Shown here: one piece after another, positions 60,709-63,700 of the stretch | Layout: every line of letters begins with the position of its first letter | Numbering within the stretch: the stretch's first letter is position 1 | Assembly (NCBI GenBank): GCA_009914755.4 | Contig: CP086569.2 | Coordinates: 21,504,001 to 21,568,000, forward strand | DNA from: the human T2T-CHM13v2.0 reference genome, Homo sapiens | Direction: 5' to 3' | DNA: 64,000 nucleotides | The notes under the pieces: model-generated | The model's database searches: none | What the model saw: the letters and a program-made list of their open reading frames with translations, nothing else | What the model was told of the DNA's origin: nothing | Translations under genes and position numbers: made by a program

Positions 60709-63700
60709 TTTTTTTTAAATTATACTTTAAGTTCTAGGGTAAATGTGCAAAAGTGCAGTTTCTTTACATAGGTATACACGTGTCAGGTTAGTTTGCTGCA
60801 AACATTATTTCATCATTTACATTAGGTATTTCTCCTAATGCTATCCCTCCCCCTTTCCCCTACCCCACAACAGGCCCCAGGGAGTGATTTTCCCCAGCCT
60901 GTGTCCAAGTATTCTCATTGTTCAATTCCCACCTATGTGTGAAAACATGCAGTGTTTGGTTTTCTGTCCTTGTGATAGTTTGCTGAGAATGATGGTTTCC
61001 AGCTGCATCTATGTCCCTGCAAAGGACATGAACTCATCCCTTTTTATGGCTGCACAGTATTCCATGGTGCATATGGACCACATTTTCTTAATCCAGTCTA
61101 TAATTGATGGACATTTGGATTGGTTTCAAGTCTTTGTTATTGTGAATAGTGCTGCAACAAACATATGTGTCCATGTGTCTTTATAGTAGCATGATTTTTA
61201 ATCCTTTGGGTATATACCCAGAAATGGGATTGCTGGGTCAAATAGTATTGCTAGTTCTAGATCCTTGAGGAATCACCACACTGTCTTCCACAATGGTGGA
61301 AGTAGTTTACACTACCACCAACAGTGTAAAAGTGTTCCTATTTCTCCACATCCTTTCCAGAACCTGTTGTTTCTTGGCTTTTTAATGATTGCCATTCTAA
61401 CTGGTGTGAGATGGTATCTCATTGTGGTTTTGATTTGCATTTCTCTGATGACCAGTGATGATGAGCAGTTTTTCATGTGTCTGTTGGCTGCATATATGCA
61501 TTTTTTGAGAAGTGTCTGTTCATATCCTTTGCCCACTTTTTTTTTTTTTTTTATACTCTTAAGTTTTAGGGTACATGTGCACATTGTGCAGGTTAGTTAC
61601 ATATGTATACATGTGCCATGCTGGTGCGCTGCACCCACTAATGTGTCATCTAGCATTAGGTATATCTCCCAATGCTATCCCTCCCCCCTCCCCCGACCCC
61701 ACCACAGTCCCCAGAGTGTGATATTCCCCTTCCTGTGTCCATGTGATCTCATTGTTCAATTGCCACCTATGAGTGAGAATATGCGGTGTTTGGTTTTTTG
61801 TTCTTGCGATAGTTTACTGAGAATGATGGTTTCCAATTTCATCCATGTCCCTACAAAGGATATGAACTCATCATTTTTTATGGCTGCATAGTATTCCATG
61901 GTGTATATGTGCCACATTTTCTTAATCCAGTCTATCATTGTTGGACATTTGGGTTGGTTCCAAGTCTTTGCTATTGTGAATAGTGCCGCAATAAACATAC
62001 GTGTGCATGTGTCTTTATAGCAGCATGATTTATAGTCCTTTGGGTATATACCCAGTAATGGGATGGCTGGGTCAAATGGTAAACCTTTGCCCACTTTTTG
62101 ATCGTTTTTTTTTCTTGTGAATTTGTTTAAGTTCTTTGTAGATTCTGGTTATTAGCCCTTTGTCAGATCCCATTCTGTAGGTGGCTGTTCACTCTGATGG
62201 TAGTTTCTTTTGCTGTGCAGAAGCTCTTTAGTTTAATTAGATCCCATTTGTAAATTTTGTCTTTTGTTGCCATTGTTTTTGGTGTTTTAGTCATGAAGCC
62301 TTTGCCTATGCCTATTTCCTGAATGACATTGCCTAGGTTTTCTTCTAGGGTTTTTATGTGTTTAGGTCTAATATTTAAGTATTTGATCTATCTTGAATTT
62401 GTTTTTGTATAAGGTGTAAGGAAGGGATCCAGTATCAGCTTTCTACATATGGCTAGCCAGTTTCCCCAGTACCAGTTATTAAATAGGGAATCCTTTCCTC
62501 ATTTCTTGTTTTTGTCAGGTTTCTCAAAGATCAGATGGCTGTAGATGTGTGGTGTTATTTCTGAGGACTCTGCTTTGTTCCATTGGACTATATATCTCTT
62601 TTGGTGCCAGTACTATGCTGTTTTGATTACTGTACCTTGTAGCATAGTTTGAAGTCAGGTAGCCTGATACCTCCAGCTTTGTTCTTTTCACTTAGGATTG
62701 TCTTGGCAATGCAAGCTCTTTTTGGTTCCATTTGAACTTTAAAGTAGTTTTTTCCAATTCTGTGAAGAAACTAATTGGTAGCTTGATGGGAATGGCATTG
62801 GATCCAAAAATTGCCTTGGGCAGTGTGGTCATTTTCACTATATTTATTCCTTCTATCCATAAGCATGAAATGTTCTTCCATTTGTTTGTGTCCTCTTTTA
62901 TTTCGGTGAGCAGTGGTTTGTAGTTCTCCTTGAAGAGGTCTTTCACATCCTTTTAAGTTGGATTCCTAGGCATTTTATCCTCTTTGTAGCAATTGTGAAT
63001 GGGAGTTCACTCATGATTTGTCTCTCTATTTGGTATTGGTGTATAGGAATGCTTATGATTTTTTCACATCGATTTTGAATCCTGAGACTTTGCTGAAGTT
63101 GCTTATCAGCTTAAGGAGATTTTGGGCTGAGATGATGGGGTTTTCTAAATATATAATCATCTCATCTGGAAACAGAGACAATTTGACATCAAGACCCTTT
63201 ATTTCTTTCTCTTGCCTGATTGCCCTAGCCAGAACTTCCAACACTGTGTTTAATAGGAGTGGTGAGAGAAGGCATCCTTGACTTTTGCTGGTTTTCAAAG
63301 GGAATACTTCCAGTTTTTGAACATTCAGTGTGATTTTGACTGTGGGTTTGTCATAAATAGCTCTTATTATTTTGAGATACATTCAATCAATACCTAGTTT
63401 ATTGAGATTTTTAGCATGAAGAGTTTTTGAAAGTTGTTGAAGGCCTTTTCTGCATCTATTGAGATAATAATGTGGTTTTTGTCTTTGATTCAGTGTATGT
63501 GATGGATTACATTTATTGTTTTGTGTATGTTGAACCAGCCTTGCATCCCAAGCATGAAGCCAACTTGATAGTGGTGGATAAGCTTTTGGATGTGCTGCTG
63601 GATTCGGTTTGCCAGTATTTTATTGAGGATTTTTGCATCTATGTTCATCAGGGATATTGGTCTAAAATTCTCTTTTTTTTGCTGTGTCTCAGCCAGGCTT

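What the first reader, a model, noticed from the sequence alone, without database searches (positions are those of the whole stretch)
61526..62094. Short L1HS-Ta-like insertion nested in an older L1PA, with full target-primed reverse transcription (TPRT) hallmarks
A 531-bp L1 3' fragment in minus orientation is near-identical to the L1HS 3'UTR and ORF2 C-terminus. It carries the ACA trinucleotide (gatgacACAttagtgg) that distinguishes the human-specific Ta subfamily from pre-Ta (ACG) and the older L1PA (GAG). It ends in a 16-nt pure A-tail, and an exact 11-bp TSD CCTTTGCCCAC lies on both sides. It interrupts an older L1PA, whose sequence resumes seamlessly after the second TSD copy. The clean tail and TSD indicate a recent event. 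Ta elements are frequently polymorphic in human populations.
Basis: partly seen in the sequence, partly recalled or inferred. Interest (0 to 1): 0.5.

Follow-up and report, generated by a model that had tools for sequence, protein, structure and literature searches.

The report
Young human L1 (Ta-0) insertion
This is an ordinary, dead 0.5-kb tail fragment of the youngest human jumping gene (LINE-1, Ta-0 subset) that pasted itself into an older LINE-1 copy; it shows the usual insertion scars and has no sign of a function.

Summary

- **What is there:** window 61553-62081 (minus strand) is a 529-nt, 5'-truncated L1 3' end, about L1 positions 5492-6020.
- **Subfamily:** it carries ACA (61644-61642) and the second Ta marker G (61558). 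At the two Ta-0/Ta-1 sites it has G and C (62038, 62035), so it is Ta-0, the older Ta subset.
- **Divergence:** against real ACA-bearing L1 copies recovered from public contigs it is 99.4% identical. Once the two Ta-0/Ta-1 sites are set aside, one private substitution (61762) and one extra A remain. All six CpGs are intact.
- **Target-site duplication:** it is 16 bp (CCTTTGCCCACTTTTT), not 11 bp, which leaves an 11-nt A-tail.
- **Insertion mechanics:** the implied nick, TTTTT/GA, fits the L1 endonuclease preference. Two untemplated bases sit at the 5' junction.
- **Host element:** removing the insert and one duplicate copy restores an older L1 (about 85% identical to the insert) with no gap.

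Whether the insert is polymorphic in humans or absent from apes could not be tested here. This is a textbook event of low interest.

The parts
61526..61541 (.). Left copy of the 16-bp target-site duplication, CCTTTGCCCACTTTTT. It lies next to the L1 3' end. Its last five T are the target T-tract that primed reverse transcription.
   Evidence: The host L1 flanks overlap by exactly 16 nt in L1 coordinates.
61542..61552 (-). Poly(A) tail of the insert, 11 A on the minus strand. It counts as 16 A if the 5 target-derived T at 61537-61541 are included. It is pure, with no interruptions.
61553..61755 (-). L1 3'UTR (203 nt). It holds the Ta marker ACA at 61644-61642 and the second Ta marker G at 61558 (CTTAaGAGTAT). 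One extra A sits at 61559/61560. GTAT is followed directly by the A-run, so there is no AATAAA.
61756..62081 (-). C-terminal 107 codons of L1 ORF2 plus the TGA stop (61756-61758). The Ta-0 markers are G at 62038 and C at 62035, giving AAG GAC (Lys-Asp). A private synonymous change, GGG to GGC, is at 61762.
   Evidence: residues 2-108 of the 108-aa translation match human ORF2p 1169-1275, with 1 difference from 8sxt and 2 from 8uw3. Also.
62082..62083 (-). Two untemplated filler bases at the 5' truncation junction (TT in the L1 sense).
   Evidence: seven comparators (L002-L005, L007, L009, L010) read AA here; the duplication does not extend into these bases.
62084..62099 (.). Right copy of the 16-bp target-site duplication. 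The inferred first-strand nick lies between 62099 and 62100 on the plus strand (5'-TTTTT/GA-3').
   Evidence: The nick position is inferred from the TPRT model.
60709..61541 (-). Host older L1PA, 3' part: end of ORF2, 3'UTR and a short A-rich tail near 60709.
   Evidence: It is 85.2% identical to the insert over the homologous 542 nt.
62084..64000 (-). Host older L1PA, 5' part (ORF2). It runs off the end of the window.

Best explanation
This is a 5'-truncated copy of a human-specific LINE-1 of the Ta-0 subset. It covers about L1 positions 5492-6020 and has an 11-nt A-tail. It inserted by target-primed reverse transcription into the ORF2 region of an older L1PA, in the same orientation.

Inferred mechanism:
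1. L1 endonuclease nicked the window's plus strand at 5'-CCCACTTTTT/GATCG-3'.
2. The freed T-tract annealed to the poly(A) of an L1 Ta-0 RNA and primed cDNA synthesis.
3. Reverse transcription or integration stopped about 529 nt in.
4. Two untemplated bases were added at the 5' junction.
5. The second strand was cut 16 nt away, and fill-in produced the 16-bp duplication.

The copy lacks a promoter, ORF1 and about 92% of ORF2. It is an inert insertion scar and cannot move again. The anatomy is shown directly. The order of the enzymatic steps is inferred from the established TPRT model.
For: - **Boundaries:** a 16-bp exact direct repeat sits precisely at the two ends, and a pure T16 run abuts the left copy.
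- **Empty site:** removing the insert and one repeat copy gives a sequence that aligns without a gap at the junction to three independent L1 copies (ATCAAAAAGTGGGCAAAGGATATGAAC). The host flanks overlap by 16 nt in L1 coordinates.
- **Protein level:** the ORF2 tail matches solved human ORF2p 1168-1275 at E = 3.5e-72.
- **Ta rules:** ACA marks Ta, ACG marks pre-Ta and GAG/A marks older elements. Ta-0 has G and C at 5535/5538 and Ta-1 has T and G.
- **Ta state of the insert:** it has ACA, G and C. The G-to-ACA distance is exactly 394 nt, as the published coordinates predict.
- **Real L1 comparators:** identity is 99.4% to L002, 99.2% to L001 and 98.7% to L003, all ACA-bearing. It is 95.6-96.4% to the GAG-bearing L009 and L008.
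- **Separating sites:** the insert has the young state at 6 of 6 sites, plus CTTA(A)GAGTAT against the older CTTAAAGTAT.
- **Private changes:** only one substitution and one 1-nt insertion are private. All six CpGs are retained.
- **Not a local copy:** the insert is only 85.2% identical to the host's own homologous segment and 93.8% to the other L1 tail in the window.
Against: - No L1HS, L1PA2 or L1PA3 consensus library was available. The 'consensus' is inferred from three ACA-bearing and two GAG-bearing contaminant copies in public contigs, chosen because they encode the same last 80 residues.
- None of the ACA-bearing comparators is itself Ta-0 at 5535/5538. The Ta-0 call rests on the published rule and on the KDY/NEY variation among the solved ORF2p sequences.
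- The 3' end lacks a canonical AATAAA (GTAT is followed by the A-run). One other Ta comparator, L003, has the same form.
- Human specificity and the empty allele were not observed.
Confidence: 0.95

Rival explanations
1. The insert is a pre-Ta or L1PA2 element that reached ACA by independent mutation, and so is not a Ta member.
For: ACG to ACA is a single CpG transition, so convergence at that one base is plausible (established knowledge of CpG decay). The G and C at 5535/5538 are the ancestral state and are also seen in the older copy L004.
Against: The second Ta marker G (61558) is also present. L001 and L003 (ACA) have it and L008 and L009 (GAG) do not. All six CpGs of the insert are intact, so there is no sign of CpG decay. 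The insert shares the young state at 5870, 5878 and 5946. However, no pre-Ta comparator was available, and the pre-Ta state at the G marker is not uniform. A subfamily name, 'Pre-Ta_ACG_G', implies that some pre-Ta elements also carry G.
Confidence: 0.03
2. The young segment arrived without retrotransposition. It could come from gene conversion or recombination between L1 copies, from endonuclease-independent capture at a double-strand break, or from an assembly artefact.
For: The event lies inside another L1 in the same orientation, a setting where L1-L1 conversion or misassembly is conceivable.
Against: The young segment is not homologous to the host position it interrupts: host ORF2 sits about 170 nt upstream of the fragment's own start in L1 coordinates. 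It ends in an A-tail and is flanked by a 16-bp duplication at a TTTTT/GA site. Conversion would replace homologous sequence and would leave neither a tail nor a duplication. Endonuclease-independent insertions typically lack duplications and tails (established knowledge). No donor exists in the window.
Confidence: 0.02

Closest known systems
L1HS Ta-0 subset of human LINE-1 (L1PA1)
   Same: It has ACA at 5929-5931, the second 3'UTR marker G (6015 in my own count), and G and C at 5535/5538. It is more than 99% identical to other ACA-bearing copies, and its ORF2 C-terminus matches human ORF2p.
   Different: It is a 529-nt dead fragment. It has one private synonymous change (GGG to GGC at 61762), one extra A before the marker G, and no AATAAA hexamer before the tail.
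L1HS Ta-1 (for example the copies in L002 and L003, and the ORF2p in PDB 8uw3 and 9k6g)
   Same: The ACA marker is shared (and in L003 also the marker G), and the rest of the 3' 500 nt is near-identical.
   Different: Ta-1 has T and G at 5535/5538 (Asn-Glu). The insert has G and C (Lys-Asp).
Canonical endonuclease-dependent TPRT insertions of L1
   Same: It has an A-tail, a 16-bp duplication within the usual size range, 5' truncation, a few untemplated bases at the 5' junction, and a nick at a T-tract/purine step (TTTTT/GA, a one-base variant of TTTT/AA).
   Different: Nothing of note. There is no 5' inversion, no 3' transduction and no target deletion.

Membership tests
L1HS-Ta | ACA trinucleotide in the 3'UTR (positions 5929-5931 or 5930-5932), where pre-Ta has ACG and older L1PA has GAG | tested here: met
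   gatgacACAttag, with ACA at window 61644-61642 on the minus strand. The GAG-bearing comparators L008 and L009 differ here.
L1HS-Ta | Second shared variant G in the 3'UTR (the 'ACA/G' against 'GAG/A' rule; position 6015 by my own count and memory) | tested here: met
   CTTAAGAGTAT has G at 61558. The ACA-bearing copies L001 and L003 have CTTAGAGTAT, and the GAG-bearing copies L008 and L009 have CTTAAAGTAT. The G is shifted by one base because of a private extra A.
L1HS-Ta | Low divergence (below about 2%) from other L1HS copies | tested here: met
   Identity to the ACA-bearing copies is 99.4% (L002), 99.2% (L001) and 98.7% (L003). Identity to the GAG-bearing copies is 95.6-96.4%. One private substitution and one indel fall in 529 nt. 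No curated consensus was available.
L1HS-Ta | Human-specific: absent at the orthologous site in other apes | not testable with these tools
   No primate genomes are held. Locus-specific pattern scans and ORF look-ups found nothing.
Ta-0 subset (as opposed to Ta-1) | G at 5535 and C at 5538 (Ta-1 has T and G) | tested here: met
   AAG GAC, with G at 62038 and C at 62035. These lie exactly 394 nt and 391 nt upstream of ACA, as the published coordinates require. L002 and L003 show the Ta-1 state.
Endonuclease-dependent TPRT insertion | Target-site duplication flanking the element exactly | tested here: met
   A 16-bp exact repeat lies at 61526-61541 and 62084-62099. The reconstructed empty site is colinear with three L1 copies.
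Endonuclease-dependent TPRT insertion | 3' poly(A) tail abutting the duplication | tested here: met
   A pure T-run at 61537-61552 on the plus strand.
Endonuclease-dependent TPRT insertion | First-strand nick at a TTTT/AA-like site | tested here: met
   The empty site reads CCCACTTTTT/GATCG, and the nick is placed at the end of the duplication. Comparison with the consensus TTTT/AA rests on established knowledge and was not computed here.

The most novel reading that the evidence does not exclude
The insert may be a presence/absence polymorphism in living humans rather than a fixed copy. It would then be usable as an ancestry or haplotype marker. Its +A and GGC variants might also tag a particular Ta-0 source lineage. 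Nothing examined here excludes or supports this. From memory, a sizeable minority of reference Ta elements are polymorphic, and fewer of these are Ta-0 than Ta-1.
Probability: 0.25. Interest if true: 0.12.

Novelty: already known. Interest (0 to 1): 0.08.

Why it matters
It matters very little beyond annotation. It is a clean textbook example of nested L1 retrotransposition. It marks the window as human DNA, because Ta elements are human-specific (established knowledge). The fragment has no promoter and no intact ORF, so no activity is expected. Its only practical value would be as a presence/absence marker if it proves polymorphic.

Tried and rejected
- **Rfam scan of the whole window:** no matches.
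- **Exact-protein look-ups for the same locus in public assemblies:** none is on record. I tried junction-spanning ORFs (112, 208 and 90 aa) and host-only ORFs (84, 100, 55 and 43 aa), hoping to find a filled or empty allele.
- **Exact-pattern scans for a host-specific 40-mer** about 60-100 bp from the junction: nothing in metagenome contigs or genome contigs.
- **Scans for the insert's private variants, to trace a source lineage:**
  - The GGTGGC 29-mer hit only one old GAG-type L1 (L011, 90.7% identical). That is a coincidence and says nothing about lineage.
  - The CTTAAGAGTAT 27-mer hit nothing.
- **Original subfamily papers** (PMC442137, PMC379164) are not held. The diagnostic rules were taken from later papers that restate them.
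- **A donor inside the window** was considered and rejected. The best in-window matches are 93.8% and 85.2% identical.

Full report
**Observation**

The 11-mer CCTTTGCCCAC occurs exactly twice in the window, at 61526-61536 and 62084-62094. About 0.1 occurrences are expected by chance. The match between the two sites extends by five more T to the right and by nothing to the left. The direct repeat is therefore 16 bp: CCTTTGCCCACTTTTT at 61526-61541 and 62084-62099.

A pure run of 16 T follows the left 11-mer at 61537-61552. Read on the minus strand, the 547 nt between the 11-mers have this layout:
- 2 bases (TT) that match no L1 comparator;
- 529 nt of L1;
- 16 A.

**Identity of the insert**

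One frame of the minus strand gives 108 residues ending ...KHRIFSLIGGN, followed by a stop codon. These residues match positions 1168-1275 of the solved human LINE-1 ORF2 protein at E = 3.5e-72. The first residue differs only because of the two filler bases.

The solved sequences themselves vary here. 8sxt reads PKDY, and 8uw3 and 9k6g read PNEY. The insert reads PKDY.

Published rules for the subfamilies are as follows:
- Ta elements carry 'ACA/G' in the 3'UTR, where older elements carry 'GAG/A' (PMC6354063).
- ACG at 5929-5931 marks pre-Ta and ACA marks Ta (bioRxiv 10.1101/179705).
- Ta-0 has G and C at 5535 and 5538, and Ta-1 has T and G.

The insert has ACA at window 61644-61642, G at 62038 and C at 62035. 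The distance from that G to the A of ACA is 394 nt, exactly 5929 minus 5535, so there are no indels in between. A 40-nt L1HS-specific probe published in PMC6354063 is present without a mismatch.

**Comparison with real L1 copies**

No repeat library was available. I looked up the exact last 80 residues of the ORF in public assemblies and obtained ten L1 3' ends, all from contigs of metagenome-type assemblies and apparently host contamination (L001-L010).

| Comparators | Marker state | Identity to the insert |
|---|---|---|
| L002, L001, L003 | ACA | 99.4%, 99.2%, 98.7% |
| L008, L009 | GAG | 96.4%, 95.6% |

(Identities, marker states.)

Six sites separate the ACA group from the GAG group, and the insert has the ACA-group state at all six. 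At the second Ta marker:
- ACA-bearing copies read CTTAGAGTAT;
- GAG-bearing copies read CTTAAAGTAT;
- the insert reads CTTAAGAGTAT, so the G is present (61558) with one extra A before it.

Against L002 over 510 nt there are three differences. Two are the Ta-0/Ta-1 sites. The third is GGG to GGC at 61762, which is synonymous and where all ten comparators read G. That leaves one substitution and one 1-nt insertion in 529 nt. All six CpGs are intact.

A single substitution cannot date the event precisely. It is consistent with the mean age of about 1.6 Myr reported for full-length Ta-0 copies (bioRxiv 10.1101/2020.12.16.423102).

The 3' end is GTAT followed directly by the A-run, with no AATAAA. 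The Ta copy in L003 has the same form, so this is a common variant.

**Host element and empty site**

The flanks belong to one older L1 in the same (minus) orientation, at 60709-61541 and from 62084 to the end of the window.
- Against L007, the two flanks map to L1 positions 1322-1966 and 1-1337, a 16-nt overlap.
- Against the other L1 in the window, the overlap is again 16 nt.
- Deleting the insert and one repeat copy gives ATCAAAAAGTGGGCAAAGGATATGAAC. This aligns with no gap at the junction to three independent L1 copies.
- The host's own homologous segment is only 85.2% identical to the insert, and the L1 tail at the start of the window is 93.8% identical. The insert was therefore not copied from nearby sequence.

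**Mechanism (inferred from the established TPRT model)**

1. The plus strand carries CCCACTTTTT/GATCG. A nick after the T-tract frees a 3' end that pairs with the L1 poly(A) tail and primes cDNA synthesis. This explains the left junction: target T5, then T11, then antisense L1.
2. The nick site TTTTT/GA is a one-base variant of the TTTT/AA preference of L1 endonuclease (established knowledge).
3. The second nick lies 16 nt away and produces the duplication.
4. The copy is truncated at about L1 position 5492, with two untemplated bases at the junction.
5. There is no 5' inversion, no 3' transduction and no target deletion.

**Rival explanations**

- *A pre-Ta or L1PA2 element with a convergent ACA.* The second Ta marker and the intact CpGs argue against this. 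No pre-Ta comparator was available, so I leave it about 3%.
- *Gene conversion, break capture or misassembly.* These do not explain a tail plus a 16-bp duplication at an endonuclease-type site, and I leave them about 2%.

**What could not be tested**

I could not test presence or absence in human populations, or in other apes.
- Seven exact-protein look-ups for locus-specific ORFs found nothing.
- Two scans for a host-specific 40-mer found nothing.
- Scans for the private variants gave one unrelated old L1 and nothing else.

**Verdict**

This is an ordinary L1HS Ta-0 fragment inserted by TPRT into an older L1PA. Both the observation and the interpretation are correct, with three refinements: the duplication is 16 bp, the tail is 11 nt, and the subset is Ta-0. 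It would be annotated as L1HS in any human assembly. Interest is low.

Noticed in passing
window 1-514 (+): Another L1 3' end, cut by the start of the window. It is the older GAG type (…AAATTATGAGTTAATG…) and ends AGTATAATTAAAAAACAAAAG. It is 93.8% identical to the Ta insert.
   Followed up: partly
window 15500-20000 (+) and 33900-40600 (+): Decayed endogenous-retrovirus coding remnants. The first set has Gag_p30 (16426-16893), reverse transcriptase (17751-18164) and integrase (19504-19950). The second set has an integrase C-terminus (33955-34386) and a weak, sub-threshold RNase H-like match (39691-40518).
   Followed up: partly
window 47974-51826 (+): A third, older L1PA with endonuclease-domain and reverse-transcriptase ORF fragments. 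It is about 86% identical to the host L1 of the finding.
   Followed up: partly
window 6627-8583 (-): A much older L1 fragment, about 67-71% identical to the young L1 comparators.
   Followed up: no
window, e.g. 25416-25722, 29479-29651, 24163-24443, 10236-10534, 13368-13592, 38704-38999, 42919-43205, 53079-53356, 58830-59137: About ten repeats of roughly 170-310 bp that look like Alu elements. Three carry the GGCCGGGCGCGGTGGCTCA head motif. None reached the Rfam gathering score for 7SL/SRP RNA.
   Followed up: no
L006:2555-2602 and 2616-2915: One of the fetched contaminant L1 copies has a 48-nt inverted L1 segment next to its 5' end. This looks like a twin-priming 5' inversion.
   Followed up: no
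L011 (metagenome contig Ga0115856_105519): A 1.6-kb contig from an environmental metagenome that consists of primate-type nested L1 fragments, which looks like host contamination. It shares the insert's GGTGGC variant, but it is an old GAG-type copy.
   Followed up: partly
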